Assembly (NCBI GenBank): GCA_039920285.1
Contig: JBDSDX010000001.1
Location: 210,001 to 242,000, forward strand
Direction: 5' to 3'
DNA from: Candidatus Saccharimonadota bacterium
GTDB lineage: Bacteria > Patescibacteriota > Saccharimonadia > Saccharimonadales > Saccharimonadaceae
DNA length: 32,000 nucleotides
Below, one piece after another: positions 1 through 14,782 of the stretch. Within the stretch, counting starts at the first letter, position 1, and each line of letters begins with the position of its first letter. A model generated the notes under the pieces. It saw only the letters and a list, made by a program, of their open reading frames with translations, did no database searches and was not told the origin of the DNA. A program made the position numbers and the translations under genes.

Positions 1-2700
1 GAGGCTTGCGGTGTATATCCATGTACCGGCATTTCCTGTTGAAGGGCTTATTTTACTGTATTGAACATCACTCAGGTAATTAGCGCCGTCATAGCCACCC
101 ATTAGGTAGAGGTTATTGGCATAAGATATGGCCGTCCCGCCGCGGCGAGCTACGTCGAAACTGGTACTTGTAGTCGACCATCCCGATGTAATATTTCCGC
201 CAGAGTTGAGTTGAGGACTGACGTAGACGGTATTACACACGTTACTGCCTGTACAACCGGTACCCGTGCCTGCACCACCCATCACATAAAGACGATTGTT
301 CCAGCTCGTTGCAGCGAAGTCAGTTCGGCCAGCTGGTAGTCCATTGCTCGCTGTCCCCCATGAGGTAATATTTCCACTTGATGGAGTAGCATAGTACACT
401 TCGGCTCGTCGATCAGTTGAAGTGCTACTTTGACCACCAATGTAATAGAGTGAAGATCCTGCTGAACGTAAACTACCCCAGGCTCTGACTGCCGGTAAGG
501 CGGCAGTTGTATCCGTCCATGTACCGACGTTTCCGTTCACATCAATGGCCGCATAAGAAACCGTATTGATTGCGGTTGTACAGTCGGTTGTGCTCGTACA
601 ACCACCTGCCGCATAAAGATAGCCATTGAGGACTGCACTCGTGACACCTATTCGATTTGGAGATGTTCCGTATGTATTTGCTGATGTGCTATAACCAGCT
701 GGTGCGCCACTATCGTTGTTATAGATCTGGAAGGTCTGAATAACGTCTGTGCGTGTCGTACACCCACCTGGGCTTGCACCCACTGTACACCCACCGATAA
801 CATACGCAAATGAGTTCGAAACTGGCACACTTAGGCCCCAACGCTGGCTAATAGTTACTGAAGAGACGTGGAAGCTATCTGTGACGGTACCGAGACTTCC
901 ATCACTGACATTCACTTTAATAAACTCAATATCAGCCAGAACACCTGATGCTGCTTCGTACCCACCAACGACGTAGATATAGCCGTTATACCCAAAGGCC
1001 GCTGCACGACGCCTACCTACCGCCATAATATTTGGCGACTCAGTCCAGCCTGACGACGCGGCTATCACGACATTATTTGAATCATCGAACTTTGCGTAAC
1101 GGACGGTTTTAAGGTCTTGTTGGTTTGGCGACACTCCACCAATAAGATAAATGTATCCGGCATATACTGTCCCACTCATGATGCCAAGTCCAGATGAACT
1201 ATCTCCTGGGATGACCCCAATTTGTAATTGGCTCGTTGTCGTGCAACCAGTGAGTGTACCAGCAACTTGAATACTACATTTATAGACGTTCGCACTATAT
1301 GCAGTACACCCTGCAGATGATGAGGCTGAGCAACCCCCGAATACATAAAGGTTTCCAGGGTTAGTGCCGGCGGAAACTGGATTCGCTCGTGCATAAGCAA
1401 ATAGGTAAGAGACAGAGTTCATACCGAGCCCTGTCATTGACTGACTCGTCCAAGCGTTGATACTTCCGTCGCTATTGAGGTCTGTTCTATTTACTAGATT
1501 GGCGTTACCGGATCCTGTTAATCCACCAACCAAGTAGACACGGTTATTGAAGATGACAGGACTTGCAGCGGCTAATCCACCAGATATTGTATTGACGGTA
1601 TCTACGCACCAGGTTCCTCCTTGGTAGGCTCCGTTTGGACAGGTTGCAGGTTTACTCATTTGACCTGTCGAGGAAATAGCAACATAGGCAACGTTTCCCA
1701 TGGTGGTTGAACACAAATTATTCGTACACCCACCAACGACGTAGAGGTATCCATTACTAATAAACGAACTGTTAAGCATGTTGCCAATATTTGAAGTTCC
1801 GGGGAGGTCACATTCTGTTGGTGATCCGCCTGTACAGCTACCCACACCACTTGTGACTGATTGATCAACGGTTGATGCATCACCATCATCGTTAATCACA
1901 CCGTAATTAATACTTGCCAACATACCGGAATTACAGTCTCCTGTTGTGGTGTTCTGAGCTGAGCAACCTCCGACTTCATATACTCTATCTCGCCATGATA
2001 AAAGGGAAGACCCGGTTCTTTGATCACTGACTCCGGCCATAGTACTCCATGTATCAAGGCTTCCGTCAGCATTTATACTCGCTACTTGAGTATCAGATTT
2101 AATTGAGGTACAGTAGCCACTTCCATTCACCGCGTCACAGCCCCCAGAAATATAAAGGTAAGCACCCCATACAGTCGAGAAGTCTCCACCATTATTCATA
2201 CGACCGGTGGACATATTAGCAGCACTTACCCAAGTGTTCAGAGTTCCGTCGCTATTAATTTTGTTGTATCGAATACTAGAGAGGGGGGTGCCACCCACTG
2301 ACGAAGCGCCACCGACAACGTACAAATAATCATTATATATTTTTATACTGTGACCGTAGATATTAGTTGGGAAGGCAGTTGAGGTTGACCAGGATCCAAG
2401 TGTTCCGGTCGGGTTTATGTCAGCAATTTGGACAGTGCTCACTGGACTGCTTGTCGAGCGACCCCCCACTAAGTACATACGGTTGTTATATGCAGCCATC
2501 GCCATATCAGATCGCACATTCGAAAGGTTAGTATCTTGATACCAATATACCCAGCTGGTAGGGTTCGTATTGGTCGGGTGCCATAGCCGAGGCTCACCGT
2601 TTGCTCCAAGCTTTGCAATGTAGACTGAGTTCGTTCGGTTTCCGCTTGAATCAACACCACCAACAGCATAAAGATACCCGCTATAGGCAACAAGAGAGAA
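1..2700 (-). repeat. Array of 15 Kelch-like beta-propeller blades, period about 160-190 nt
   Basis: [YF]-x-Y-x-x-G-G blade signatures were read on the minus strand at about 95, 280, 445, 615, 800, 975, 1150, 1340, 1535, 1740, 1975, 2145, 2310, 2480 and 2665. Examples are NNLYLMGG, NRLYVMGG, GYLYAAGG, GYIYVVGG, GYLYVVGGC, RVYEVGGC, AYLYISGGC and NRMYLVGG. Many blades carry a GGC-x(4-10)-C loop, for example GGCDAVNGSGYC and GGCSAQNTTTGDC. A sixteenth blade (GGYIYSVGG, about 3745-3770) lies upstream of the Gly-rich domain. Confidence 0.75.
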
Positions 2701-4792: not shown

Positions 4793-7700
4793 TTACCTGT
4801 TAGAGAAGGTGAAGTTTAAGTTTCCAATATAAGCGTTCGCATTTGAACTCGCTGTTGCATTGACCTTAAAGACAATACTATTGCCAGGCAAGAATCCACA
4901 CGTTGACGGATCGGCTGCACCGTTCGCTGTCCCAATCTGCCATGATGAGACACTTCCGGTTGATACAGCAACTGCTGGCCCACAAGCAGTGAGCCCGGTT
5001 GTAGCATCGTTTCGATAGACTTGATACTGCACCGTAGAGTTGATGCTATCGGTCCGTCCTCTAATTGAAGTTTGACCTGAAGCAAAGCTCTTGAATGATC
5101 CCGGAAGTTGGTAGGTAACATAAATGCTATAGGTCTGTGCCGTTGGTTGCGGAGATGTCCATTTATAGAAGTTATAGGTCTCGTTGGAACCGCAAATGGT
5201 TGGTTGACCTGAGGTACCGTCGTTGATGTCGAGCGTATCAGAACAGATGTCAGAGATCATTGTTCCGATACCAGTTCCATGGAGTACAGCGTTAGTATAT
5301 TCAGGTGAGATTGTAATGATATTATCTGGAGAAGAACCGCAAGCACCCCAGCCATCAGCCTCGTAACACTGCAGTTTTCCGAGTGTCGTGTCGTAGTACA
5401 TCGAACCGAGTAGTGCGTCGTTGTCACTTGCGATTGGTGCCGATGCTCCTTTATCGAGTGTCAGTAGTGTCGTTGGTCCACCATTAGCACCACCACCAAT
5501 TTGAACATTTGGTGCTGTATTTGAAGAGAGTGTCATTGAGAATTGGTCGACGGAGAAGGTGCGAGCAGCAGATGCTGTTTCGACAAAGTAGACGTACGGA
5601 TTTGTTGGGGTTGTTCCATCAGTTTTGATATAACAGGTGATCTGCGTCCAACCCGAAGTCGTTACTACTTGTGTATTGTAATCAACACAATCAACATAAT
5701 TACCACCGGCACTCGTGCTTCCATCTCTAGAGTAACGAACCTTAAAGTCATTGAATGTGCCGGTTGATAACTTAGCGTAAACAGAGACACGGTAGAGTGT
5801 GCTCACAATTGGATTGATGGCTAGCTTGTTGCGCACACCAGCATTCGCTGCACCAGTTGTGACGACAGCTTGCGCGCTGTCACTCGCTTCTGATCCATCA
5901 GTGCTATTTCGTGTCACTCCGACAGTCCCGAGACCGGCCGTCACCCAGTTTGTTGCGAAGTTTCCGGCATCATTAACACCACCATCATTTGCATAGTTGA
6001 AGTCGGCTGCAATTGTGACGCTTAAGTTGTCGACATAGAAGGTACGCGCGACGCCTGATGTTTGACGAATTAATATAGCATTATTTGACGTGATACCGGA
6101 TGCAGGTGCAGCAAATGTACAGTTTACCTTTGTCCAAATACTTGTCGTAGCTGTTTTCCCTGTCGCACATAGCACAGATGCTGTTGTTCCATCGACAGAG
6201 TAATAGACGTTCATATCAGTAAACGTTCCACTCAGGAGTCGAGTTGTGAACGATACGTTGTAATTCATATTCGTGTTCAAAGTTGTACTTAGTGTGTCTT
6301 TGACACCAGCATTTGCAGTAGCCGCAGTAGCGGTTGATACAGAAGCTTGACCAGTTGCAATGAAATCACCAGCTGTTGAGTATCTCGAAACGGTCGATGC
6401 GGATGAGCTTGACCAGGTGCTTGCAGGGAACGTTGTGACTCCACCAGACCCAATTGTTTCGGCACCTGCGTTGGTAGCGTATTCAGTCACGTTACTATTC
6501 ACAGAGAAGAGCCCAGCAGCTGAGGCAGTTTGCACACTAAGTAGTGTACCGTTGACCGGACTAGTGGAACTATCACGGATCGTGAGTCCGTTAGTTGTAG
6601 AGGTCTTGCTGACGATCAACTCAGCACCACCAGCAGATTGCAGAGTATTGTCGTAGGCAGATTGCAGAGTTGTTGAACTCGAAGCACCGGCAGCAGTCCA
6701 GTCAGCACCATTCCAGATCATGGTTGCTGTGGTGTTTTGACGCATGGCGATTGTATTTCCTGTCCCACCACCGTTGACGATGAGTGTAAAGTCATTTGAA
6801 CCGTTAGCTGCAGTAATGTAGACAACACGGCCAGCCGTCAGAATTGTTGGGTCAGGCAATGTGGCGCTCAAACCGCCATTGTTAAAACCGGCAAGGATAG
6901 CCGACGAGTTATTAACTGATGCTGCTGTGATCGTACAGCTTGCCCCAACTAATGCACCACCGGTATAACAGTTGGCGTCATTTGCGGTCGTTGAGAAGGT
7001 CGGGGTAGTGAAGACAACGAGGCCACCCGCGCCACTTCCAACACCCGTACCACCAGTAAGTGTGATATTACCACCGTTAGCATTACCAACAGTGGCGTTA
7101 CCACCTTGAATAGTAAGTGCACCACCAGTCACCGCTGTTGTCGAACTCCCCGTACCACTGACGGTGAATGCACTTGGTGCGCCCGCAGTCACACCATTTC
7201 CTAAGTAGAGTGCACCAGTCGTGTCGCTGAATGTTCCTCGAACAACACCGTTGGTGCTAATTGTGACGCCATTCTTTGCTTGGATTGCGGTAATGCCCGC
7301 AGTTGCGCTAGCACCTGAGCCAATCGTAATATTTGTGGTAGATCCAACAGTGTTGTTATTTCCGATGGCAAGCGTTTGTGTACCAGTCGCTAGCGTGGCG
7401 CTACCAATTTGAATAGTTGAAGCGCGACTTGTTCCGATTTGAATAGCACCATCTGCTCCTGATCCCGTTTTTGCACCAGCATCAATCGCAACGTTCCCAC
7501 CTGCAGCGTTTGTTCCACCAGCTGTACCCCCTTGGAGAACAAGGTTTCCACCGACAGAACCTGTTCCTGATCCACCTGTTCCGCCGGTGACAGATAAGTT
7601 TCGACCAGCCGTTGAGGCGGCTGATACCGCCAGTCCAATTGAGTGATTAGCGTTAGATCCGAACGTAATATCGCCAGTGTTGGTGAGAGTGAAAACATCA

Positions 7701-8353
7701 ACAGCAGCTGATTGTAGTTGCATGAAGTTGCCACCAGCACCGGTTTTGTTTAGGAAGACGCTACTCGTGCTCGTTGATGCATCAGTCTGGACACCTTGTG
7801 CGAGTTGGACAAAGTTAGCACTTGTTAAGCCATTCAGGCGATTGCTATTCAGTGAATACGGTGTTGCGGAGAGACGTTTCATCGGGAGTAGTTCTCCGTC
7901 AGGTGTACATGAGCTAAATGGGGTACATGAGCCGTTGGTGCTGCCGATGTTCATTGAAAGCCAGAGTGTGTCTTGGTTCCAGTCAACGTTGGTGCCGAAT
8001 GGGGTGATTGATCCGAGTTGTACTGACATGAATCCGTTGATGACCTGAACACCTTGAGTGGCGGTGTTGAGATAATTCTCAGTCCATTTCAGAGTTCCGG
8101 CAGGTGATCCACTCGTGTTTCCTGCGAGCAGTCCATCACCATCTTGGTAAATTTTAAACTGAATATTGTATGTGCCGTCAGGGACGATATTGCCAGCGGC
8201 GTTATAGAGACGACCCTGGAAATTGAGTTGTTGGTTGGTACCTGCTGCGGCATGTGCCTGTGTGCTGAAAAGCATAAAAGAGAGCAAAAGAACTCCTAGC
8301 AAAAAAGCATAGGGAGCACTAGTTTTAAAAATCCTCCACACGGTTGAAACCAT
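4793..8353 (-). CDS. 1186-aa secreted fibre-like surface protein with an N-terminal fibre module, a G/T/A-rich beta-helix-like region, two tandem CBM/jelly-roll-like domains and a Cys-containing C-terminal domain
   Basis: ATG at 8353. The signal peptide is ...FMLFSTQAHAAAG. The N-terminus reads QLNFQGRLYNAAGNIVPDGTYNIQFKIYQDGDG. Repetitive segments include GGTGGSGTGSVGGNLVLQGGTAGGTNAAGGNVAIDAG. Two homologous domains of about 160 aa end in ARTFYVDNLSVT (about 6014-6496) and ARTFSVDQFSMT (about 5528-6007). The stop lies 1 nt before the start of the giant gene. Confidence 0.85.
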   Translation of the reverse strand: MVSTVWRIFKTSAPYAFLLGVLLLSFMLFSTQAHAAAGTNQQLNFQGRLYNAAGNIVPDGTYNIQFKIYQDGDGLLAGNTSGSPAGTLKWTENYLNTATQGVQVINGFMSVQLGSITPFGTNVDWNQDTLWLSMNIGSTNGSCTPFSSCTPDGELLPMKRLSATPYSLNSNRLNGLTSANFVQLAQGVQTDASTSTSSVFLNKTGAGGNFMQLQSAAVDVFTLTNTGDITFGSNANHSIGLAVSAASTAGRNLSVTGGTGGSGTGSVGGNLVLQGGTAGGTNAAGGNVAIDAGAKTGSGADGAIQIGTSRASTIQIGSATLATGTQTLAIGNNNTVGSTTNITIGSGASATAGITAIQAKNGVTISTNGVVRGTFSDTTGALYLGNGVTAGAPSAFTVSGTGSSTTAVTGGALTIQGGNATVGNANGGNITLTGGTGVGSGAGGLVVFTTPTFSTTANDANCYTGGALVGASCTITAASVNNSSAILAGFNNGGLSATLPDPTILTAGRVVYITAANGSNDFTLIVNGGGTGNTIAMRQNTTATMIWNGADWTAAGASSSTTLQSAYDNTLQSAGGAELIVSKTSTTNGLTIRDSSTSPVNGTLLSVQTASAAGLFSVNSNVTEYATNAGAETIGSGGVTTFPASTWSSSSASTVSRYSTAGDFIATGQASVSTATAATANAGVKDTLSTTLNTNMNYNVSFTTRLLSGTFTDMNVYYSVDGTTASVLCATGKTATTSIWTKVNCTFAAPASGITSNNAILIRQTSGVARTFYVDNLSVTIAADFNYANDGGVNDAGNFATNWVTAGLGTVGVTRNSTDGSEASDSAQAVVTTGAANAGVRNKLAINPIVSTLYRVSVYAKLSTGTFNDFKVRYSRDGSTSAGGNYVDCVDYNTQVVTTSGWTQITCYIKTDGTTPTNPYVYFVETASAARTFSVDQFSMTLSSNTAPNVQIGGGANGGPTTLLTLDKGASAPIASDNDALLGSMYYDTTLGKLQCYEADGWGACGSSPDNIITISPEYTNAVLHGTGIGTMISDICSDTLDINDGTSGQPTICGSNETYNFYKWTSPQPTAQTYSIYVTYQLPGSFKSFASGQTSIRGRTDSINSTVQYQVYRNDATTGLTACGPAVAVSTGSVSSWQIGTANGAADPSTCGFLPGNSIVFKVNATASSNANAYIGNLNFTFSNR

Positions 8354-8459: not shown

Positions 8460-9422
8460 TTATTTTGAGATTTGTTGACCCTGATATTGCACAGCCAAAA
8501 CGCGCTTTTCGCGCACTTCACCAAACCAGAAGCTAAGTACGATCGCAACGATACTCACATACAATGGCCAGAGTGTCAAAATACTTGTCGCAAGATCTGA
8601 TTTGCCACCGTTAGTAGCTGAACCTACCACTTCAGGTTGACCATTAATGATAGCTGCAACAGACAAGAAGGCCACACGACCTTCGGCATCGGTTACCTGG
8701 GTACTCATTTGGTAGGTACCTGGTTTTTGGAAGACGTGAGCGGTAGAGAATGATGTGTTGTTGTTGCGTGAAACGACGTTATTTTGTCCATCACCCCACT
8801 GAATATTAAAGGCAAATGGCGCGACACCACCGAGGAGTGTCAGCGGCATTGCCAATTCCTGTCCTGGGAATGATCCACGGAAGACCGCATCGGTACTTAA
8901 GAGGATTTGTGGGCCACCAAAGTTAATTGGAGTGATGCCACTCGATTGAGTGGGCAGTAGGTCGTAAAAGACGGTTACCTTGTTCGAATCTGGTCCGGCT
9001 TGATTGAGTGCATCATACACTCTGGCTATCAATACGTTTTGGCCGATCAGAAGATCTACTTGCATCTCGTACTCTCCGGTATTGGAACAGATAGTCGAAC
9101 CGGCAAATATGTCATTCTTAAAGATTTCAATTAATGAATCATTGACACATTTACCCGATACGGTAATTGGTGATGTTGAGAAACGTTTCTGTTCGGAGGG
9201 CTGTTCGATCGTTGGTGCGACCGTCGGGGGCTTACCAGGAACAACACCAGTGAGCGAGATAGATCGTGACTCAGGACCTGGACTGAGGGCGAATGCGGTG
9301 TACGCAGAAAGGGGAATGCCCGCTAAGAGCAGTAGAATAACCAGAGGAAGATACGAGGTATAGGTGTGCGGTCGTAGCTTGCCAGAGTGGTGATGCTTAA
9401 TTAATTTTACCCCGTGTAGCAT
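8460..9422 (-). CDS. 320-aa membrane protein with a His-rich N-terminal motif plus TM, an Ig-like domain, a PKD-like domain and a C-terminal TM
   Basis: ATG at 9422. The N-terminus is MLHGVKLIKHHHSGKLRPHTYTSYLPLVILLLLAGIPL. The PKD-like signature is FNIQWGDGQNNVVSRNNNTSFSTAHVFQKPGTYQMSTQVTDAEG. The C-terminal hydrophobic helix is ILTLWPLYVSIVAIVLSFWF. Confidence 0.8.
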   Translation of the reverse strand: MLHGVKLIKHHHSGKLRPHTYTSYLPLVILLLLAGIPLSAYTAFALSPGPESRSISLTGVVPGKPPTVAPTIEQPSEQKRFSTSPITVSGKCVNDSLIEIFKNDIFAGSTICSNTGEYEMQVDLLIGQNVLIARVYDALNQAGPDSNKVTVFYDLLPTQSSGITPINFGGPQILLSTDAVFRGSFPGQELAMPLTLLGGVAPFAFNIQWGDGQNNVVSRNNNTSFSTAHVFQKPGTYQMSTQVTDAEGRVAFLSVAAIINGQPEVVGSATNGGKSDLATSILTLWPLYVSIVAIVLSFWFGEVREKRVLAVQYQGQQISK

Positions 9423-9464: not shown

Positions 9465-10493
9465 CTACTTACGACGGCGACGAGTTGTCTTTGACTTGTT
9501 CTGCTGCTTCGTTGAAGAACCAGTTGCTCGGCTGACGATAAGGCGGTTGTAACGGCGGATCAGATAACGGAAGAGGAAGAAGGCCATGACAAGGACGATG
9601 ATAGCCACTCCGATGAGTGTATAAGGAATAACCCAGAATGAAATAGTCTGTTTTATTTCCTTGGCGTCAGAACCATAGCTCATTGTGAATTCAGCGTTAT
9701 ATTTACCGAAAAGTATCTTGTCTCCAATAACTGATGTATCAAGTTTTTCTTCAAATCGACGTGTACTATCTGAAAGAATCAAACGCTTCGCTTCATTGAC
9801 GGGAAGCGTGGCTACTGTTTTGCCGAACATGTCAGTAATCGTGACGAGTCCGACTGGTTGTTCAAAAGTGTTGCCAGTATTCTTTATTCTCTGAACAACA
9901 GTAATAGGTGCTCCCTGGACGATTGATGAGGCTTTACCGCCGCTATTAACAGAGAATTCTTCAATAGATAATTGTTCTTTTGCTTGTCCGTTTACCTTAA
10001 GGAAGATGAGAGAGCCAAGACTTGCATTGAGAGACACCCCTGAACCCTTTAGTTCTGGCGGCACTCCACTAAAACGGACAATACCATAATAACCACCAGG
10101 TGAAGCGTTCTTCGGAATGTCGATAGTGACAGTTATTGTTTTGATTTGCTTTGGTTTTAATGTTGAAGATGGGACGACACGGACCCACTCTTTGAATGAA
10201 TATGGCGTTGTTGTATCATCTAGAATAACTTTAGGAGTACCGTCCTCGCCGCTCGCAATAAAGTCATTAACCTGACCAGTAACATACAAATCAGTACTTG
10301 AGACATCACGCAAGCTAAGGTTTGTGGTAATCGTTTGACCGGGGTCACCGTTAATACTGACAACTGGAGGCCCAATTTCAAGCGCTTGACCACCACCAGT
10401 CGCTGTTTGTGCTTGGACAGCAGAAGTGCTAAGTAGTGCGAAAGTGGCAACAAATACTGCGATGAGTGTGAATAATTTCTTTCGCCCTGTCAT
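9465..10493 (-). CDS. 342-aa cell-surface protein, DUF916/DUF3324-like (CscA / WxL-interacting-protein-like), with a signal peptide, two beta-sandwich halves, a C-terminal TM anchor and a basic tail
   Basis: The signal peptide is ...LLSTSAVQAQT. Motifs include KPKQIKTITVTIDIPKNASPGGYYGIVRF and QRIKNTGNTFEQPVGLVTITDMFGKTV...GKYNAEFTMSYG. The TM helix is VIPYTLIGVAIIVLVMAFFLF, followed by ...KSKTTRRRRK. The start lies 2 nt after the upstream stop (TAGATATG). The family assignment rests on architecture and motif resemblance only. Confidence 0.75.
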   Translation of the reverse strand: MTGRKKLFTLIAVFVATFALLSTSAVQAQTATGGGQALEIGPPVVSINGDPGQTITTNLSLRDVSSTDLYVTGQVNDFIASGEDGTPKVILDDTTTPYSFKEWVRVVPSSTLKPKQIKTITVTIDIPKNASPGGYYGIVRFSGVPPELKGSGVSLNASLGSLIFLKVNGQAKEQLSIEEFSVNSGGKASSIVQGAPITVVQRIKNTGNTFEQPVGLVTITDMFGKTVATLPVNEAKRLILSDSTRRFEEKLDTSVIGDKILFGKYNAEFTMSYGSDAKEIKQTISFWVIPYTLIGVAIIVLVMAFFLFRYLIRRYNRLIVSRATGSSTKQQNKSKTTRRRRK

Positions 10494-10495
10494 AT

Positions 10496-11599
10496 CTAGA
10501 AGGTTGCCGTACAGATGTAAGTCAGTGTCGCTGTGTACGTACCAGATGCTTGGTTACCAGCTACGTTCACGATGTATGATGAGGTAAAAATCTGTGCGTT
10601 AGTTGGCCCAGCACCACCGTTGGCGCTATTAGCAACTGAGTCACCGGTCACAAACTTGAATTGATCGACCGTGTTATATCCAGTTGCTGCTTGACCTTTC
10701 AGGTTGACACCATCCGGTGCAGTAGCAACTTCAAGTCCAACAGCAACTGTAGAGGTTGCCGTTGTGTTGAGCTTTAAGTTAGTACCAAATTGTCCAGTAC
10801 CTCTTACGCCGACTCCTGTTACGGCCATCGCAGGGATAGTGTTGGAACCAGAGGTAAGGGTCGCTCCGTTTACTGTAATGCTATAGCCTGATGCCGCATT
10901 TGTGGAAGCAGCCATCTGTGATTGAGCAGTTGCAGTATCGGTTGGAGAGAACAATTGGTTGAAGGTAATCGCGCCCGACGTTGCAGTCGTACAGTCTGGA
11001 ATCGAAGCAGTCAAGCTAATTGCTGCACCAACACAGAAGATGAGTGACTCAGGCATAGTTCCAGTCAAGACAATCTGTTGAGCAGTACTCGCTGCGACGG
11101 TACCAGTGTCAATTGGTGAGCCAGTTGCATTCGTTGCAACGTAAGTCGTAATACGAACGAAGAAGGTAGTACCACCGGCTGCGGTTGGGTTAGTCACAGT
11201 GTTCAAAACAACCGAAATAGTACCAGCTGCTGCTGCTGTTTTTGTAATATAAGGTGCACCGTTGGTTGTATTAACAAGAGTCGCGCCAGATGCCCAACCA
11301 GTACCACCACTTACCGTGGCAGAAGTAGTCACAATTCCAGTTGGAAGGACACAAGCTGTGACGGATGCAGTAGTACAGTATTCAAACTTAATTGATCCTG
11401 TTGAAGAACCACTTGTCGTGAAGTCGAACTTATGTTTGACGACACCACCAGGTTTTGATCCACCGTCGGTGCCACCGGCTTGAAGGGTTAATGAACGTGT
11501 TGTTATCTGTGCTGCGTACGTTGTTTGTGTGTTAAATACGGATACAACTAGTGCTGTCAGCAATAAAACACTTAGAAATAACCCTTTCCTCAATCTCAT
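10496..11599 (-). CDS. 367-aa secreted T/S/A/G-rich two-domain beta protein, paralog B of a putative fibre/surface-complex subunit (WxL-like C-terminal module with Tyr in place of Trp)
   Basis: ATG at 11599. The signal peptide is ...NTQTTYA|AQITTRSLTLQAGGTDGGSKPGGVVKHKFDF. The C-terminus is ...SGTYTATLTYICTATF. It is about 60% identical by eye to the adjacent 374-aa protein. Confidence 0.85.
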   Translation of the reverse strand: MRLRKGLFLSVLLLTALVVSVFNTQTTYAAQITTRSLTLQAGGTDGGSKPGGVVKHKFDFTTSGSSTGSIKFEYCTTASVTACVLPTGIVTTSATVSGGTGWASGATLVNTTNGAPYITKTAAAAGTISVVLNTVTNPTAAGGTTFFVRITTYVATNATGSPIDTGTVAASTAQQIVLTGTMPESLIFCVGAAISLTASIPDCTTATSGAITFNQLFSPTDTATAQSQMAASTNAASGYSITVNGATLTSGSNTIPAMAVTGVGVRGTGQFGTNLKLNTTATSTVAVGLEVATAPDGVNLKGQAATGYNTVDQFKFVTGDSVANSANGGAGPTNAQIFTSSYIVNVAGNQASGTYTATLTYICTATF

Positions 11600-11605
11600 G
11601 TCGGA

Positions 11606-11635
11606 ATTGTAGCATGAGCGTTAAGAGGCCGTCAA
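11606..11635 (-). promoter_or_regulatory. Promoter TTGACG-18-(TGC)TACAAT lying 6 nt from the ATG of the 367-aa paralog (leaderless configuration)
   Basis: The minus strand reads TTGACGgcctcttaacgctcaTGCTACAATtccgacATG. There is no SD sequence. Confidence 0.5.
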
Positions 11636-11657
11636 TGAAATAATCGTAAGTGTCTTG

Positions 11658-12782
11658 CTAGAAAGTAGGTGTACAGATGTAAGTCAAAGTTGTGGTGTAG
11701 GTACCGGCAGGTTGGCTACCAGGGACATTCACAACATAGGAGACAGTGAAGATTTGGGCGTCTGATCCACCAGCACCACCGTTAGAACTATCTGCGACGA
11801 TGTCGCCTGTAGTGAACTTGAAGTTGTCAACGGTATTGTATCCGGTCGTCGCTTGCCCTCGATAGTTTGTTCCGTTTGAGGCAGTAGCAACTTCAAGGCC
11901 AAATCCAGTCAATTGTGTTGCGGTGGTGAGTGTATTCGCTTTTAAGTTCATACCGAATTGGCTCACACCACGAGCTGTCACAGCCGCTGCTGACATCTGC
12001 GAGACGGTATTCGAGCCTGAAGTTAGTGTTGGGCCGTTCACGCTGATCGCGTACCCTCCACCAGCATTAGTTGAGGCAGCAAGTTGGGATTGAGCAGTGG
12101 AAGTATCGACAGGTGAGAAAAGTTGGTCGAAGTCAACGAGGCCGGTTGTTACCGTACTACAGTCGGGAACTAAGGCGGTCAAGCCAATGGCTTTACCAGC
12201 ACAGAAGACAAGTGATTCGGGCATAGTACCGCTAAGGATAATTTGAGTTGCGGTTGCGGCAGTGACGTTTCCTGTATCAATTGCAGTACCGGTAGTATTT
12301 GATGCGGTATAGGTTGAGATACGAACGAAGAACGTGTAGTTTGTCGCGGTTGGGTTGGTAACTGAACCAAGTGTGTAAGACAAGGCAAGTGGGCCTGCGA
12401 TTGATGCGGCAGTACGAGTAAGGTAGGGCGCGCCGTTAGTCGTGTTCACCATTGTGAAGCCAGTTGCGTTGTTCTGCGCATCGAGTGTTGCAGACGTTGT
12501 CACGAGTCCAGTAGGAGTTGTACAAGTACCTGCAGCGAGAGTACAGTATTCGAATTTAATTGAACCGACTGATGCATTTGTCGGGACTGTAAAGTCGTAC
12601 TTATGCTTGACGACACCACCTGGTTTTGAACCACCATCGGTCGCACCGGCCTGAAGAGTTAGACTACGAGTTGTAATCTGTGCAGCAAATGCACTTGAGG
12701 GCAGTAATACTTGCGATATGAAGCTGGCCAAAACGACTACTCCAACTAAGAGGGGTGCAAAGGAGCGTTTTTGTATTATCAT
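11658..12782 (-). CDS. 374-aa secreted T/S/A/G-rich two-domain beta protein, paralog A and the candidate major subunit
   Basis: The ORF track extends to 12839, but the internal ATG at 12782 gives a normal signal peptide: MIIQKRSFAPLLVGVVVLASFISQVLLPSSAFA|AQITTRSLTLQAGATDGGSKPGGVVKHKYDF. A TTGACA-17-TATTCT promoter (12824-12852) lies inside the longer ORF. The C-terminus is ...AGTYTTTLTYICTPTF. Confidence 0.85.
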   Translation of the reverse strand: MIIQKRSFAPLLVGVVVLASFISQVLLPSSAFAAQITTRSLTLQAGATDGGSKPGGVVKHKYDFTVPTNASVGSIKFEYCTLAAGTCTTPTGLVTTSATLDAQNNATGFTMVNTTNGAPYLTRTAASIAGPLALSYTLGSVTNPTATNYTFFVRISTYTASNTTGTAIDTGNVTAATATQIILSGTMPESLVFCAGKAIGLTALVPDCSTVTTGLVDFDQLFSPVDTSTAQSQLAASTNAGGGYAISVNGPTLTSGSNTVSQMSAAAVTARGVSQFGMNLKANTLTTATQLTGFGLEVATASNGTNYRGQATTGYNTVDNFKFTTGDIVADSSNGGAGGSDAQIFTVSYVVNVPGSQPAGTYTTTLTYICTPTF

Positions 12783-12823
12783 TTTTTTGATCTCTTTTTG
12801 TTTTATGGTGGTTGTTTGACCTG

Positions 12824-12852
12824 AGAATAGCATTAGCATGATACTCTGTCAA
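12824..12852 (-). promoter_or_regulatory. Near-consensus promoter TTGACA-17-TATTCT for the 374-aa paralog
   Basis: On the minus strand the -35 box TTGACA is at 12852..12847, the spacer is 17 nt, and the -10 box TATTCT is at 12829..12824. The leader of about 35 nt contains AAAGAGA before the ATG at 12782. A weak hairpin plus T7 run (tcgttgaaaacga tgtattttttt) lies just upstream. Confidence 0.55.
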
Positions 12853-12900
12853 TAAAAAAATACATCGTTTTCAACGAGAAGTGTAAAACTGGGGATAACT

Positions 12901-13638
12901 CTAGTATGTGCCAGTAACGATGAGTGTCTGATTGCTACTATATTGACCTCCCGGTGTCAGTGCGGCGACATTGACGAGGTAGGTAATAGTGTAATCAGTA
13001 ATACCGGAGCTTTTTGACGCAAGTGCGATCGTTTCACCAGGGACGTAACGGAAAGAGTTAGGTGTCGAGTAATTTGGTGCTGCCCCGCCGAAACCGTACT
13101 GATAATTATTCGGGTTTGCTCCAACTGAACTAGGTGAGGTGTTTGCCACAAGGTTTATACCAAATTGTTCCACGCCAATAGTTGAAGCAGTGTTTGAGGA
13201 TAATGACGGGAGTACTTTTGCGTTATTGGTCGGTGCTGTGCCGGCAATCTGAACGACGTATCCGTAGCTGGTGTAGTTAAGAACCGAGAAGGTAGCAATG
13301 GCAACAGAGGAGGTCAAAGGACTAAATGCTGGAAATGAGATAGCGCCAGAGGTAATGCTGACAGCGAGATTTGGGTCACTCGGTGTTTTTTGACCAGAGT
13401 TTACTTGAAAGCTACCAGAGTTAGAATTACCAACTGAGATATCACCGATGATATCGGTAGCTTTAAAATTTGCCGAGCTGGATTGAACATTGCTTCCCGA
13501 GCCAACGCTACTTTCACTCAGACGGAAGTTAGTTGATTTTGGGTCGGCTGCGAAGGCCACGCTTGAAGTAGTGACAACACCAAGCAGTGTCACAACAAGG
13601 ACAACAATTCCCAACATACCCCTTCGCATATCTTTCAT
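12901..13638 (-). CDS. 245-aa secreted protein sharing the C-terminal module of the 367/374-aa paralogs (candidate minor subunit)
   Basis: ATG at 13638. The signal peptide is ...TTSSVAFA|ADPKSTNFRLSESSVGSGS. The shared module runs ISFPAFSPLTS...GYVVQI...GVEQFGINLVANT...YSTPNSFRYVPGE...YLVNVAALTPGGQYSSNQTLIVTGTY. Confidence 0.8.
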   Translation of the reverse strand: MKDMRRGMLGIVVLVVTLLGVVTTSSVAFAADPKSTNFRLSESSVGSGSNVQSSSANFKATDIIGDISVGNSNSGSFQVNSGQKTPSDPNLAVSITSGAISFPAFSPLTSSVAIATFSVLNYTSYGYVVQIAGTAPTNNAKVLPSLSSNTASTIGVEQFGINLVANTSPSSVGANPNNYQYGFGGAAPNYSTPNSFRYVPGETIALASKSSGITDYTITYLVNVAALTPGGQYSSNQTLIVTGTY

Positions 13639-13741: not shown

Positions 13742-14782
13742 ATGGCAAATACCCCTGAAAAATCATCAAAGTCTGACGAGCTTCCTGCACCTGAAGTGCT
13801 GACTGTTCAGAGTGATGATGGCTCACAAGCGCCAAAAGTGGCTTCGTCAGTCCTCTCACAACGAGCGAAAGGTATGCGTCGACGGGTGACCTATCGTCCA
13901 AGCCATAAAGCGACCTTTATTGGACTTGCTGTGGTTATCGCAGTACTTTTGATTAACGGAGGTGTTATTGCTTTCGTATTGGGGGGCAAAGATCCTTCAG
14001 GTGGTACAACTAATGCAAATGCAGTCACCTTAAGTTCAGGAGTTCTTAATTCATTGGGCGTCAGTCGTAATCCTGTCGGCGAAACGAGTGAAGAGCTTTC
14101 GATCGGTCCAAACACGAAGTTTGGCGGCACGATCTTGGTCAATGGCAACACGAGTATTGGCGGGGAACTAACGCTTAACAAAAAGTTATCTGCCCAAGAT
14201 GCAACAGTAACCACATTACAAGCGGGAAATACGTCACTTCAAACCTTAGTTGTGAACGGTGACCTAACCGCAACAAATATTAATGCTCGTACTGACCTTT
14301 CAGTTGTCGGAGCGACTCGCCTTCAAGGTGCAGTTACAATTGGTCAACTTTTGACGGTTAATAATAGTGTGAGCGTTATCGGAAACTTAGCAGTTGGCGG
14401 TACATTGACTGCTCGTTCATTCCAAGCTAATAATCTTATCTCTGAAAACACACTCACGATCGGTGGACACATTATTACTGCTGGTTCAGCTCCTGCAGTT
14501 GCGAGAGGTTCAGCAACTGGTTCAAACGGCTCGGTTTCGATTAGTGGTAATGATACATCAGGAACTGTCGCTATCAACGCGGGAACGGGCGCTGGAGGCG
14601 GTATGGTCGCTCAAGTCGCCTTTAAGACATCATTCCCAACTATTCCCCACGTCGTCGTTACTCCAGTTGGTGGACCGATCGGGAGCTTCTATATCACTCG
14701 CTCTGCCGGTGGTTTCAGCATATTCGTGACTGGCGCACTTTCACCTGGTGGGTACGCCTTTGACTACATTGTTGTGCAATAG
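13742..14782 (+). CDS. 346-aa type-II membrane protein with a cytoplasmic N-terminus, one TM, an extracellular beta-helix-like repeat stalk and a C-terminal beta-sandwich (lectin/tail-fibre-tip-like) domain
   Basis: ATG at 13742. The TM helix is FIGLAVVIAVLLINGGVIAFVLGG. Degenerate repeats of about 14-15 aa read LVNGNTSIGGELTL / LVVNGDLTATNINA / LSVVGATRLQGAVTIGQLLTV / VSVIGNLAVGGTLTA. The C-terminus is VAFKTSFPTIPHVVVTPVGG..FYITRSAGGFSIFV...GGYAFDYIVVQ. Confidence 0.75.
   Translation: MANTPEKSSKSDELPAPEVLTVQSDDGSQAPKVASSVLSQRAKGMRRRVTYRPSHKATFIGLAVVIAVLLINGGVIAFVLGGKDPSGGTTNANAVTLSSGVLNSLGVSRNPVGETSEELSIGPNTKFGGTILVNGNTSIGGELTLNKKLSAQDATVTTLQAGNTSLQTLVVNGDLTATNINARTDLSVVGATRLQGAVTIGQLLTVNNSVSVIGNLAVGGTLTARSFQANNLISENTLTIGGHIITAGSAPAVARGSATGSNGSVSISGNDTSGTVAINAGTGAGGGMVAQVAFKTSFPTIPHVVVTPVGGPIGSFYITRSAGGFSIFVTGALSPGGYAFDYIVVQ

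What the first reader, a model, noticed from the sequence alone, without database searches (positions are those of the whole stretch)
9465..13638. Candidate undescribed surface-fibre / Csc(WxL)-like module: three paralogous secreted beta proteins plus a C-terminally anchored two-domain protein
Seen in sequence. The 245-aa, 374-aa and 367-aa products all have cleavable Sec-type signal peptides (..AFA|A, ..TYA|A). All are extremely T/S/A/G/N-rich with very few charged residues. They share a C-terminal module of about 170 aa: [IV]xF..FSP, then G-Y-x-[IV]-x-[VI], then G[VT]xQFGxNLx[AL]NT, then GY[NS]T..F[KR][FY]..G[DE], then Yx[VI]NV...G.Y, ending T[YL]I[CV]TxT[FY]-COOH. The 374-aa and 367-aa proteins are about 60% identical by eye. 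They share an invariant mature N-terminus (AQITTRSLTLQAGxTDGGSKPGGVVKHK) and five conserved Cys positions. Two nucleotides downstream is a 342-aa protein with a signal peptide, two beta-sandwich-like halves, one C-terminal TM helix and an RRRRK tail. Established knowledge. That architecture is the one seen in DUF916/DUF3324 (CscA, WxL-interacting) proteins, which in Lactobacillales sit beside WxL-domain (CscB/CscC) proteins. The GYxI and TYI motifs here sit where the two WxL motifs occur in those domains. Inference. One reading is a highly diverged (Trp->Tyr) Csc/WxL-like non-covalent surface complex in a non-Firmicute, CPR-like lineage. The other is a donor-strand-type fibre (TasA or archaeal-thread-like), in which the invariant mature N-terminal strand is the donor. 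Under that reading the 374-aa protein, with its own near-consensus promoter, would be the major subunit. The 245-aa protein would be a minor or tip subunit and the 342-aa protein the membrane base. No sortase/LPXTG, prepilin signal, chaperone-usher or type IV pilus gene is present, so the module fits no standard pilus pathway.
Basis: partly seen in the sequence, partly recalled or inferred. Interest (0 to 1): 0.85.

Follow-up and report, generated by a model that had tools for sequence, protein, structure and literature searches.

The report
Pam donor-strand pilus operon of Saccharibacteria
The four genes are real and form the core of a "Pam" pilus operon, a surface-fibre system of ultra-small CPR bacteria first described in a 2026 preprint, so the module is not undescribed; what is new here is that its membrane-anchored chaperone-like protein is a remote homologue of the WxL-interacting proteins of Gram-positive bacteria.

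Summary
Three paralogous secreted beta-rich proteins (245, 374 and 367 aa) and a 342-aa protein with two Ig-like domains and a C-terminal membrane anchor lie head to tail on the minus strand.

The module is already described. NCBIfam names the 245-aa protein PamT (tip pilin). It finds the Pam pilin C-terminal domain in all three proteins. Troman et al. (bioRxiv 2026) solved cryo-EM structures of homologous pilins from Ca. Mycosynbacter amalyticus. Those pilins polymerise by donor-strand exchange, helped by membrane-anchored chaperones and without an usher.

The order atp operon, 346-aa gene, PamT, pilin(s), chaperone, PamR, large protein is kept in 37 of 39 fully covered Saccharimonadia genome loci; 35 of the 39 carry exactly two pilin genes.

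The fibre reading holds, but the donor is most likely the inter-domain linker rather than the mature N-terminus, and PamR is the likely final anchor.

The WxL reading holds only for the 342-aa protein. It is homologous to WxLIP (DUF916-DUF3324): hhalign P = 1e-11 with clean controls, and WxLIP is the top Foldseek hit. The pilins show no detectable similarity to WxL domains. The held copy of the Pam preprint never mentions WxL, so this link appears unreported.

The parts
12901..13638 (-). PamT, a single-domain tip pilin (245 aa) with a signal peptide cleaved after AFA30. It has the Pam pilin C-terminal domain (res 96-245) but no inter-domain linker.
   Evidence: NCBIfam NF058579 CPR_pilus_PamT (equivalog): 264.5 bits against a cutoff of 240, E = 7.7e-79. 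NF058581 scores 138 bits. Present in 39 of 39 fully covered related loci.
11658..12782 (-). Pilin 1 (374 aa). It occupies the position of PamA in M. amalyticus but has the size of PamB (37.9 kDa). It has an N-terminal 9-strand beta-sandwich, a linker and a C-terminal Pam pilin domain.
   Evidence: NF058581 CPR_Pam_pilin_C: 135.2 bits against a cutoff of 55. The AF2 NTD (res 38-176) has pLDDT 80-95 and nine strands; the CTD has pLDDT 25-37. More than 2610 homologues were found. Molecular weight.
10496..11599 (-). Pilin 2 (367 aa), a paralogue of pilin 1 (63.5% identity). It occupies the position of PamE.
   Evidence: NF058581: 133.7 bits. BLASTP. Exactly two pilin genes in 35 of 39 related loci.
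12195..12251 (-). Inter-domain linker of pilin 1 (res 178-196, ATQIILSGTMPESLVFCAG), the putative donor strand. The equivalent stretch in pilin 2 is at 11027-11083.
   Evidence: Near-invariant across 151 aligned pilin sequences (149 from related loci plus the two of this window), consensus QIxLTGTMPESLVFCTG. The donor role is inferred from the cryo-EM structures of PamA and PamB. It was not tested on this protein.
9465..10493 (-). Membrane-anchored chaperone-like protein (342 aa): signal peptide, two Ig-like domains, a C-terminal TM helix and a basic tail. It sits in the PamD position and is a remote homologue of WxLIP (DUF916-DUF3324).
   Evidence: AF2 pLDDT 80.9. Foldseek top hits are WxLIP 9i25_C (E = 1.6e-12) and 9i1y, followed by RbmA and chaperone-usher chaperones. 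hhalign against 54 WxLIPs: P = 1.2e-11 over 216 columns spanning both domains. Controls give P = 0.05-0.07. Reciprocal HMM searches are specific.
9993..10097 (-). Long beta-hairpin of chaperone domain 1 (res 133-167, GGYYGIVRFSGVPPELKGSGVSLNASLGSLIFLKVNG), the candidate complementing strand.
   Evidence: It carries the densest cluster of invariant residues (G133, G134, R140, F141, P145, G152, V153, L155, A157, S158, L159, G160, L162). pLDDT dips to 61-78 at res 141-160. In the hhalign alignment it falls opposite the WxLIP stretch between the conserved GGI(T)F and (Y/S)YVVALL motifs. I take that stretch to be the hairpin that AF2 predicts to complete the WxL sandwich, but I could not map the paper's figure onto the sequence. 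The role is inferred.
8460..9422 (-). PamR (320 aa), an RbmA-like protein with a C-terminal TM helix (277-300).
   Evidence: NCBIfam NF058578 CPR_pilus_PamR (equivalog): 326.8 bits against a cutoff of 300, E = 9.2e-98. Present in 39 of 39 loci. Its role is taken from the preprint's AlphaFold models.
9243..9287 (-). Mature N-terminal strand of PamR (res 46-60, LSPGPESRSISLTGV).
   Evidence: The consensus PGPxAGSIGLTG in 71 orthologues shares I-x-L-T-G with the pilin linker QIxLTG. This fits PamR donating the strand to the last pilin. Inferred.
4793..8353 (-). Secreted Cys-rich protein of 1186 aa, a conserved downstream neighbour. It is probably the 'tail fibre-like protein' mentioned in the preprint.
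   Evidence: Present after PamR in 38 of 39 loci. No family hit in Pfam, NCBIfam or PHROGs. Whether it belongs to the pilus is not known.
1..4791 (-). Giant protein of at least 1597 aa that runs off the window. It has a Gly-rich domain and Kelch propeller repeats and starts 1 nt after the stop codon of the 1186-aa gene.
   Evidence: Homologue present in 28 of 39 loci.
13742..14782 (+). Divergently transcribed 346-aa type II membrane protein with no known family.
   Evidence: Lies between atpC and PamT in 39 of 39 loci. Hydrophobic segment at 53-83. No family hits.
12824..12852 (-). Promoter-like site upstream of pilin 1 (TTGACA-17-TATTCT with TG). A second such site lies at 11606-11635 upstream of pilin 2.
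   Evidence: The number of sites is not above shuffled expectation, so the evidence is weak.

Best explanation
This is a Pam pilus operon of a Saccharimonadales (CPR/Patescibacteria) bacterium: PamT, two pilins, one membrane-anchored chaperone and PamR.

Proposed mechanism:
- All five proteins are exported by Sec and their signal peptides are removed.
- Each pilin has a self-complete N-terminal sandwich and a C-terminal Ig-like domain that lacks one strand.
- The 342-aa protein, tethered to the membrane by its C-terminal helix, fills that groove with a strand from its domain-1 hairpin (donor-strand complementation).
- The linker strand of the next pilin then displaces the chaperone strand (donor-strand exchange). 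The fibre therefore grows from the base, with groove-only PamT at the tip.
- No usher and no ATP are needed, because there is no outer membrane to cross.
- PamR finally inserts its N-terminal strand into the last pilin and anchors the fibre through its own TM helix.
- The fibre probably makes first contact with the host cell.

What is shown here: the gene identities, the paralogy, the domain architecture, the conserved synteny, and the homology of the chaperone-like protein to WxLIP.

What is inferred from the M. amalyticus structures and models: polymerisation, which strand is donated, the order of assembly, and the roles of PamT, PamR and the chaperone.
For: - NCBIfam equivalog hits above cutoff for PamT and PamR, and the Pam pilin C domain in all three beta proteins.
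- The preprint reports cryo-EM structures of PamA and PamB that show linker donor-strand exchange. It also describes PapD/FimC-like chaperones with a C-terminal TM helix, and the tip and terminator roles of PamT and PamR.
- The gene order T, pilin, pilin, chaperone, R is collinear with M. amalyticus T-A-E-D-R.
- The neighbourhood (ATP synthase, MFS transporter, CBS/CorB-like protein) matches the preprint.
- Synteny holds in 37 of 39 fully covered loci, all from Saccharimonadia MAGs.
- AF2 of the 342-aa protein gives two Ig-like domains plus a TM helix, with a chaperone-like and WxLIP-like fold.
- AF2 of the pilin gives a nine-strand NTD with high confidence and an unresolved CTD. That fits a domain that is not self-complete.
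- The linker and the chaperone hairpin are among the most conserved stretches.
- The PamR N-terminus shares I-x-L-T-G with the linker.
Against: - No direct alignment with the M. amalyticus proteins was possible. No sequence match to this pilin was found in the PDB copy, the preprint's PDB codes are therefore presumably not yet released, and I could not fetch the genome.
- No NCBIfam Pam model matches the 342-aa protein, so its equivalence to PamC/PamD rests on position, architecture and fold.
- No multimer modelling could be run, so strand insertion is untested for these proteins.
- The low confidence of the CTD may simply reflect a shallow alignment (members are 63-86% identical to the query).
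- This operon has one chaperone and no 55-kDa PamA-type pilin or PamB-PamC pair, so details of assembly may differ.
- The preprint's chaperone and PamR roles are themselves AlphaFold predictions.
Confidence: 0.82

Rival explanations
1. A WxL/Csc-type non-covalent surface complex rather than a polymer. The 342-aa WxLIP homologue would stay permanently bound to monomeric beta proteins and display them on the cell surface, as proposed for WxLIP and WxL in enterococci and lactobacilli.
For: The 342-aa protein is homologous to WxLIP. The cluster layout is parallel: small WxL of about 245 aa, large WxL with the shared domain at its C-terminus, then WxLIP on the same strand, compared with PamT (245 aa), pilins and chaperone. 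WxLIP is predicted to complete the WxL sandwich with one of its strands, and a WxLIP-WxL complex is in the PDB (9i25).
Against: The beta proteins carry the Pam pilin domain, whose homologues form filaments resolved by cryo-EM. They show no WxL-domain signal and have 0-1 Trp. PamR and PamT equivalogs are present.
Confidence: 0.08
2. The invariant mature N-terminal strand (AQITTRSLTLQ) is the donor strand, and the 342-aa protein is the permanent membrane base.
For: The N-terminal 28 residues are nearly identical in the two pilins and highly conserved across 151 aligned pilins. The strand is modelled with low confidence (pLDDT about 50) next to a confident NTD. TRSLTLQAG also loosely resembles SRSISLTGV of PamR. 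While the fibre grows, the chaperone does tether its base to the membrane.
Against: In the solved PamA and PamB filaments the strand in the neighbour's groove is the inter-domain linker. Strand 39-45 is needed to make up the nine NTD strands the preprint describes. The PamR N-terminus matches the linker motif I-x-L-T-G exactly. PamR, not the chaperone, is the dedicated TM-anchored terminator in the published model.
Confidence: 0.08
3. A chance resemblance or an annotation artefact, with no functional module.
For: None beyond the low-complexity-like composition.
Against: E-values of 1e-13 to 1e-151 between the paralogues. Thousands of homologues. Curated HMM hits above cutoff. Strict synteny across species-level genomes.
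Confidence: 0.01

Closest known systems
Pam pilus system of Ca. Mycosynbacter amalyticus (PamT-PamA-PamE-PamD-PamR-PamB-PamC; Troman et al., bioRxiv 10.64898/2026.03.03.709456; NCBIfam NF058578, NF058579, NF058581)
   Same: PamT and PamR equivalogs. The Pam pilin C-terminal domain in all three beta proteins. Two-domain pilins with a nine-strand NTD. A two-Ig-domain protein with a C-terminal TM helix between the pilins and PamR. No usher. The same flanking genes (ATP synthase, MFS, CBS/CorB-like). The same first five gene positions.
   Different: Only one chaperone gene is present, and there is no PamB-PamC pair after PamR; a 1186-aa protein and a giant Kelch/Gly-rich protein follow instead. 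The pilin in the PamA position is 374 aa (37.9 kDa) rather than 55.3 kDa. The two pilins are close paralogues (63.5% identity) with five conserved Cys, whereas the preprint reports two or three Cys pairs. This one-chaperone layout is in fact the common one: the order is kept in 37 of 39 related loci, and 35 of the 39 have exactly two pilin genes.
WxL / Csc clusters of Lactobacillales and Bacillales: WxLIP (DUF916/PF06030 + DUF3324/PF11797 + TM) with small and large WxL proteins (Hassan et al. 2023, PMC10599100; PDB 9i1y, 9i25)
   Same: The 342-aa protein is a remote homologue of WxLIP across both domains. It has the same architecture (signal peptide, two Ig-like domains, TM helix, basic tail) and a similar length (330-390 aa). 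The cluster logic is the same: a roughly 245-aa domain-only protein, then longer proteins with the shared domain at the extreme C-terminus, then the anchored protein, all on one strand. In both systems the partner domain is predicted to be completed by a strand from the anchored protein.
   Different: The partner proteins are not detectably WxL domains: no PF13731 hit, no Trp-x-Leu pair, and profile-profile comparison at background. Only a short C-terminal motif looks alike (VPGS...Y-x-T-T-L-T-[WY]), and it is not significant (P = 0.085). The 342-aa protein scores below Pfam's gathering threshold for PF06030 and does not hit PF11797. WxL proteins are described as peptidoglycan-bound monomers, not filaments. 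The host lineage is different. WxL clusters have no PamR-like terminator.
Classical chaperone-usher pili (Pap/Fim; PapD-like chaperones PF00345/PF02753)
   Same: Ig-like subunits with a missing strand and donor-strand complementation and exchange (from the preprint). A two-domain chaperone-like fold (Foldseek E of 1e-9 to 1e-7 to CfaA, YadV, DraB, CsuC, Caf1M and FimC). A groove-only tip subunit and a dedicated terminator. An invariant aromatic residue at the subunit C-terminus.
   Different: No usher and no outer membrane. The chaperone is membrane-anchored. The donor is an internal linker, not an N-terminal extension. The subunits have two domains. There is no sequence-level relationship (no PapD Pfam hits; hhalign P = 0.007-0.044 against eight E. 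coli chaperones).
TasA / camelysin and archaeal bundling pili (PF12389)
   Same: Secreted beta-rich subunits that polymerise by donor-strand complementation in cells without an outer membrane.
   Different: No PF12389 signal at E <= 10. Those systems have no dedicated anchored chaperone, tip pilin or PamR-like protein.

Membership tests
Pam pilus system (CPR-type) | PamT tip pilin (NCBIfam equivalog NF058579) | tested here: met
   264.5 bits against a cutoff of 240, covering 237 of 241 profile positions.
Pam pilus system (CPR-type) | PamR RbmA-like terminator with a C-terminal TM helix (NF058578) | tested here: met
   326.8 bits against a cutoff of 300. Hydrophobic segment at 277-300.
Pam pilus system (CPR-type) | Pilins carrying the Pam pilin C-terminal domain (NF058581) | tested here: met
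   138.1, 135.2 and 133.7 bits against a cutoff of 55. Pilin CTD against PamT CTD gives hhalign P = 1.8e-31.
Pam pilus system (CPR-type) | Two-domain pilin: nine-strand N-terminal sandwich, linker strand and truncated Ig-like CTD | tested here: inconclusive
   The NTD is modelled with nine strands at pLDDT 80-95. The CTD is unresolved (pLDDT 25-37), so the open groove could not be seen.
Pam pilus system (CPR-type) | Chaperone with two beta-sandwich domains and a C-terminal TM helix, encoded in the operon (PamC/PamD) | tested here: met
   AF2 pLDDT 80.9, domains at 38-167 and 175-288, helix at 291-324. Fold matches to chaperone-usher chaperones. The gene position equals that of PamD. Direct alignment to PamC/PamD was not possible.
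Pam pilus system (CPR-type) | Conserved operon and neighbourhood, restricted to CPR | tested here: met
   All 80 loci come from Saccharimonadia/Patescibacteria MAGs. The order is kept in 37 of 39 fully covered loci. ATP synthase, MFS and CBS genes flank the operon.
Pam pilus system (CPR-type) | Filament formed by donor-strand exchange of the linker | not testable with these tools
Inferred from the cryo-EM of homologues.
Pam pilus system (CPR-type) | Second pilin-chaperone pair (PamB-PamC) and a large PamA pilin, as in M. amalyticus | tested here: not met
   The window holds one chaperone ORF and three Pam-CTD ORFs. The related loci have one chaperone gene each, and 35 of the 39 fully covered loci have exactly two pilin genes. 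In the 80 loci the first pilin is mostly 371-451 aa, never about 520 aa. These genes could lie elsewhere in the genome.
WxL / Csc cluster | WxLIP: PF06030 (DUF916) plus PF11797 (DUF3324) above Pfam thresholds | tested here: not met
   PF06030 scores 19.7 bits against a gathering score of 27.3 (E = 8.8e-4). PF11797 is absent. 25 of 37 homologues hit PF06030 at E up to 0.1 (best 1.7e-5), but generic Ig-like families score similarly.
WxL / Csc cluster | Remote homology of the anchored protein to WxLIP over both domains | tested here: met
   hhalign probability 97.4%, P = 1.2e-11 over 216 columns. A second, larger alignment of 79 Pam chaperone sequences gives P = 2.4e-12. Reversed and PamR controls give P = 0.0025-0.066. 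The Pam-chaperone HMM finds 59 of 81 WxLIPs and none of 1092 other ORFs. The WxLIP HMM finds only chaperones among 3418 ORFs. WxLIP is the top Foldseek hit.
WxL / Csc cluster | Partner proteins carry the WxL domain (PF13731) with two Trp-x-Leu motifs | tested here: not met
   No Pfam hit at E <= 10, whereas true WxL proteins score 1e-65 to 1e-75. hhalign P = 0.085-0.56, equal to the reversed controls. A WxL HMM finds nothing in the window. The proteins have 0-1 Trp. A structural comparison was not possible.
Classical chaperone-usher pathway | PapD-like chaperone (PF00345/PF02753) and an outer-membrane usher | tested here: not met
   None of the 37 chaperone homologues hits a PapD family. hhalign against eight E. 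coli chaperones gives P = 0.044 and 0.007. No usher-like hit appeared among the window ORFs I scanned against Pfam. Similarity is at fold level only.
Sortase-assembled and type IV pili | LPXTG sorting signal, or a prepilin leader with G|F/M-T-L-I-E | tested here: not met
   A regular-expression search of all module proteins found neither motif.
TasA / camelysin fibres | Peptidase_M73 / TasA domain (PF12389) | tested here: not met
   No Pfam hit at E <= 10 for any of the three beta proteins.

The most novel reading that the evidence does not exclude
The Pam pili of CPR bacteria and the WxL/Csc surface clusters of Firmicutes may descend from one ancestral system of bacteria without an outer membrane. 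In that system a membrane-anchored two-Ig-domain protein completes, by strand insertion, the incomplete C-terminal beta domain of secreted partner proteins.

The homology of the anchored protein is well supported here. That the partner domains (Pam CTD and WxL) are also homologous is not excluded, but my sequence tests do not support it.

If the whole systems are related, two predictions follow. WxLIP would act as a PapD-like chaperone of Gram-positive bacteria, and WxL proteins might polymerise or exchange strands. Conversely, the Pam 'chaperones' might act partly as stable anchors.
Probability: 0.35. Interest if true: 0.65.

Novelty: new member of a known kind. Interest (0 to 1): 0.4.

Why it matters
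Pam pili are among the most abundant proteins of a cultivated CPR parasite and are thought to make first contact with the host. Recognising the operon in an unannotated MAG, where every gene is called 'hypothetical protein', assigns a function to about 5 kb of dark matter.

The survey shows that the one-chaperone layout, nearly always with two pilin genes, is the common form of the operon among the 80 Saccharimonadia loci sampled here. The seven-gene M. amalyticus operon would then be an elaboration.

The homology between the Pam chaperone and WxLIP connects a newly described CPR pilus to a widespread but poorly understood surface system of enterococci, listeriae and lactobacilli. It gives both fields a testable mechanistic hypothesis: strand complementation by a membrane-anchored chaperone in cells that lack an outer membrane.

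Tried and rejected
- PDB sequence searches with the 374-aa and 342-aa proteins and with the chaperone profile found nothing. No PamA/PamB match appeared, so the preprint's entries (25PZ, 25QA) are presumably not yet released.
- Rfam and tRNA scans of the window were empty. PHROGs gave no hits.
- I could not obtain the M. amalyticus proteins. The genome-collection scan returned the 80 best loci and none was M. amalyticus. A look-up of one candidate on a long contig gave another MAG. The preprint's supplement holds no sequences.
- The supplement of the WxLIP paper has its sequences only as images. I recovered a 49-aa stretch from tryptic peptides in its Table S13. With it I found fragment P0241, and from that the WxLIP family.
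- The E. faecium locus L081 is a frameshifted long-read assembly and was not used for alignments.
A 13-sequence subset worked.
- The AF2 model of the pilin CTD is too poor for a fold comparison with the WxL domain. The Foldseek result for the pilin therefore speaks only for the NTD.
- Promoter and terminator scans do not exceed chance.
- Rejected readings: WxL-domain membership of the pilins, TasA, sortase pili, type IV pili, and sequence membership in the classical chaperone-usher family.

Full report
**Observation.** The stretch 9465-13638 holds four consecutive minus-strand genes of 245, 374 (393 from an upstream ATG), 367 and 342 codons.
- The 374-aa and 367-aa products are 63.5% identical over 367 residues (E = 8e-151).
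- The 245-aa product shares only the C-terminal ~170 residues with both (29-31% identity, E about 1e-13).
- T/S/A/G/N make up 52-58% of the three proteins and charged residues 7-8%. Five Cys positions correspond between the two long paralogues.
- The 342-aa protein has an N-terminal signal sequence, a hydrophobic segment at 283-314 and an RRRRK end. AlphaFold2 on a 37-sequence alignment (pLDDT 80.9) gives two beta-sandwich domains followed by a long helix.

**What it is.** Pfam finds nothing in the three beta proteins, and only a sub-threshold WxLIP_PGBD (PF06030) match in the 342-aa protein. NCBIfam release 20 is decisive:
- The 245-aa protein is PamT (NF058579, 264.5 bits, cutoff 240).
- All three beta proteins carry the 'Pam pilus system pilin subunit' C-terminal domain (NF058581, 134-138 bits, cutoff 55).

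- Cryo-EM of filaments from Ca. Mycosynbacter amalyticus (2.8 and 3.6 A) identified two pilins, PamA and PamB.
- Each pilin has a nine-strand N-terminal sandwich, a single linker strand and a truncated Ig-like C-terminal domain. [quoted passage not shown]
- From AlphaFold and Foldseek the authors propose that PamC and PamD are FimC/PapD-like chaperones with a C-terminal TM helix. PamT would be a groove-only tip pilin. PamR would be an RbmA-like, TM-anchored terminator that inserts its N-terminal strand into the last pilin. No usher is involved.

The GenBank numbering in their Table S1, together with the text, implies the contiguous order PamT-PamA-PamE-PamD-PamR-PamB-PamC.

**Origin and context.** The window comes from a 795-kb contig of a 'Candidatus Saccharimonadales bacterium' MAG. 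These genes are annotated there as hypothetical proteins ABIP50_01090 and ABIP50_01100.
- The flanks match the neighbourhood the preprint reports: an F1Fo ATP synthase operon, an MFS transporter and a CBS-domain (CorB-like) protein. A DsbA-like thioredoxin is also present.
- A scan of one genome per GTDB species with the chaperone alignment returned 80 loci (146 confirmed), all from Saccharimonadia/Patescibacteria MAGs.
- In the 39 loci with full 10-kb flanks, PamT, the chaperone, PamR, atpC/atpD and the divergent 346-aa gene occur in all 39. A large downstream protein occurs in 38, and 35 loci have exactly two pilin genes.
- The order atp, 346-aa gene on the opposite strand, PamT, pilin(s), chaperone, PamR, large protein holds in 37 of 39.
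- The window holds one chaperone ORF, three Pam-CTD ORFs and one PamR, and no further copies.

The first five positions are therefore collinear with M. amalyticus T-A-E-D-R. The PamB-PamC pair and a 55-kDa PamA-type pilin are absent here. The pilin in the PamA position is 37.9 kDa, close to the 38.7 kDa of PamB.

**Which strand is donated.** Three observations point to the linker instead:
- In my model of the 374-aa protein, strand 39-45 (RSLTLQA) is the first of exactly nine NTD strands. That is the number the preprint gives for the NTD.
- The linker region 180-196 (consensus QIxLTGTMPESLVFCTG) is nearly invariant across the 151 aligned pilin sequences.
- The conserved mature N-terminus of PamR (PGPxAGSIGLTG) shares I-x-L-T-G with that linker. 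This is what one expects if PamR caps the last groove by mimicking the donor.

The CTD (178-374) is modelled at pLDDT 25-37, against 80-95 for the NTD. That fits a domain that cannot fold without a partner strand, but the shallow alignment is an alternative cause. I could not run multimer predictions. The donor assignment therefore rests on the homologues' structures.

**The 342-aa protein and the WxL question.** Foldseek of its model against the PDB puts 'WxLIP from Enterococcus faecium locus A bound to long WxL' (9i25_C, E = 1.6e-12) and 9i1y first. RbmA follows (5.7e-11), then chaperone-usher chaperones (CfaA, YadV, DraB, CsuC, Caf1M, FimC; 1e-9 to 1e-7).

To test for homology I needed WxLIP sequences. 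Tryptic peptides in Table S13 of Hassan et al. 2023 (PMC10599100) gave a 49-aa stretch. That stretch found the PF06030 fragment P0241. P0241 in turn recovered 78 family representatives. Fifty-four full-length members (330-393 aa; PF06030 plus PF11797 at about 1e-31 to 1e-45) formed alignment A3.

| hhalign comparison | P-value |
|---|---|
| Pam chaperone (37 seq) vs WxLIP; probability 97.4%, 216 collinear columns over both domains | 1.2e-11 |
| Pam chaperone (79 seq from the genome loci) vs WxLIP | 2.4e-12 |
| Pam chaperone vs reversed WxLIP, and the reverse | 0.05 |
| PamR vs WxLIP (22 columns) | 0.0025 |
| PamR vs Pam chaperone | 0.066 |
| Pilin vs WxLIP | 0.011 |
| Pam chaperone vs eight E. 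coli K-12 chaperones | 0.044 and 0.007 |
| WxLIP vs the same E. coli chaperones | 0.034 |

- HMM searches are specific in both directions. The Pam-chaperone HMM finds 59 of 81 WxLIP ORFs (best E = 7.9e-10) and none of the 1092 other ORFs in the WxL loci. The WxLIP HMM finds 20 Pam chaperones at E <= 1e-3 and no other ORF among the 3418 of the CPR loci. In the window it hits only the 342-aa ORF.
- None of the 37 chaperone homologues hits the PapD Pfam families.

The nearest known family by sequence is therefore WxLIP, not PapD/FimC. The PapD-like relationship is at fold level only.

**The beta proteins are not detectably WxL domains.** Eighty metagenome loci with WxLIP yielded 271 WxL-domain ORFs.
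- Small WxL proteins of 243-259 aa and large ones of 675-1400 aa lie upstream of WxLIP on the same strand. The domain ends at the protein's C-terminus. This layout is strikingly parallel to PamT, pilins and chaperone.
- Profile-profile comparison of the Pam CTD (117 sequences) with the WxL domain (37 sequences) gives P = 0.31. With pilins only it is 0.085 and with PamT only 0.56. These values are indistinguishable from the reversed controls (0.58-0.69). The positive control, pilin CTD against PamT CTD, gives 1.8e-31.
- Full-length and relaxed alignment modes add nothing.
- True WxL proteins hit PF13731 at 1e-65 to 1e-75 and never the Pam pilin model. The Pam proteins hit no Pfam family at E <= 10, neither WxL nor TasA.

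Only a short C-terminal motif looks alike: WxL 'VPGST..Y.TTLTW.L' and Pam 'VPGSQPAGTYTTTLTYIC'.

**Mechanism.** The best-supported model, with an overall confidence of about 0.8, runs as follows:
1. Sec exports the proteins and their signal peptides are cleaved.
2. The membrane-anchored 342-aa protein caps the incomplete CTD of each pilin with a strand from its conserved domain-1 hairpin. That hairpin (residues 133-167) holds the densest cluster of invariant residues and shows a local pLDDT dip. In the hhalign alignment it lies opposite the WxLIP stretch that I take to be the hairpin predicted to complete the WxL sandwich.
3. The linker of the next pilin displaces the chaperone strand. The fibre grows from the base, with PamT at the tip.
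4. PamR terminates growth and anchors the fibre.

Shown here: the identities, paralogy, architecture, synteny and the WxLIP homology. Inferred: polymerisation, donor identity, order of assembly and function in host contact.

During growth the chaperone is, transiently, the membrane attachment of the fibre.

**Novelty.** The module itself is known (preprint posted in 2026; NCBIfam release of June 2026). This window is a new member. It belongs to the one-chaperone layout, nearly always with two pilin genes, that predominates among the 80 Saccharimonadia loci sampled here.

The homology between the Pam chaperone and WxLIP appears unreported. The held copy of the Pam preprint contains no mention of WxL, DUF916 or DUF3324. 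No paper in the searchable library combines WxL or DUF916 with CPR, Patescibacteria or Saccharibacteria. Among the 15 top-ranked papers, none combines WxL or DUF916 with chaperone-usher or donor-strand terms either. Whether the whole systems share ancestry remains open. It needs a structural comparison of the Pam CTD with the WxL domain in 9i25.

Noticed in passing
window 1-4791 (-): A giant ORF of at least 1597 aa runs off the left end of the window and starts 1 nt after the stop codon of the 1186-aa gene. It has an N-terminal hydrophobic segment, an extremely Gly-rich region at about aa 380-640 (which explains the GC peak of 0.567 at 3001-4000) and Kelch beta-propeller repeats (PF24681 8e-30, PF01344 9e-26). 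A homologue follows the operon in 28 of 39 related loci.
   Followed up: partly
window 4793-8353 (-): A secreted 1186-aa protein with 14 Cys and no family hit in Pfam, NCBIfam or PHROGs. It follows PamR in 38 of 39 loci, with lengths of about 1000-2900 aa. It is probably the 'tail fibre-like protein' of the Pam preprint. Whether it is mounted on the pilus is unknown.
   Followed up: partly
window 13742-14782 (+): A divergently transcribed 346-aa type II membrane protein (hydrophobic segment 53-83) with a repeat-rich ectodomain and no family hit. It lies between atpC and PamT in 39 of 39 loci. Its possible role in the pilus system is unaddressed.
   Followed up: partly
window 8460-9422 (-), PamR residues 1-25: PamR orthologues share a conserved His-rich N-terminal stretch (consensus HHxHSGxLRPHEHTSY) before the hydrophobic segment. 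This is unusual for a plain Sec signal peptide and may be a lineage-specific targeting or regulatory motif.
   Followed up: no
window 10496-12782 (-), pilin Cys residues; 22900-23595 (-): Both pilins have an odd number (five) of invariant Cys: 80/87 in the NTD, 194 in the linker, 208 at the start of the CTD and 370 in the last strand. PamT has none. One Cys is therefore either free or forms an inter-subunit bond, possibly locking the donor strand. A DsbA-like thioredoxin gene lies 9 kb away.
   Followed up: no
window 11658-12782 (-), residues 38-176: The best PDB fold match of the confidently modelled pilin NTD is the Bacillus biofilm hydrophobin BslA (4bhu, E = 1.3e-5, TM 0.59) and its paralogue YweA. 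This is interesting because the known hosts of cultivated relatives have hydrophobic mycolic-acid surfaces.
   Followed up: no
window 12901-13638 (-), PamT residues 31-95: The mature N-terminal region of PamT, ahead of the pilin domain, contains three conserved S-x-N-[YF] repeats (SxNYxFDES, SSSxNYQ, SxNFQ). Their role is unknown. They may form the distal, host-facing surface of the tip.
   Followed up: no
L082-L161 (metagenome WxL loci): In WxL clusters the small WxL proteins are 243-259 aa, the same length as PamT (245 aa), and the WxL domain always ends within a few residues of the C-terminus, as the Pam CTD does. The C-terminal hairpin motif VPGS...Y-x-T-T-L-T-[WY] is shared by eye but is not significant.
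   Followed up: yes
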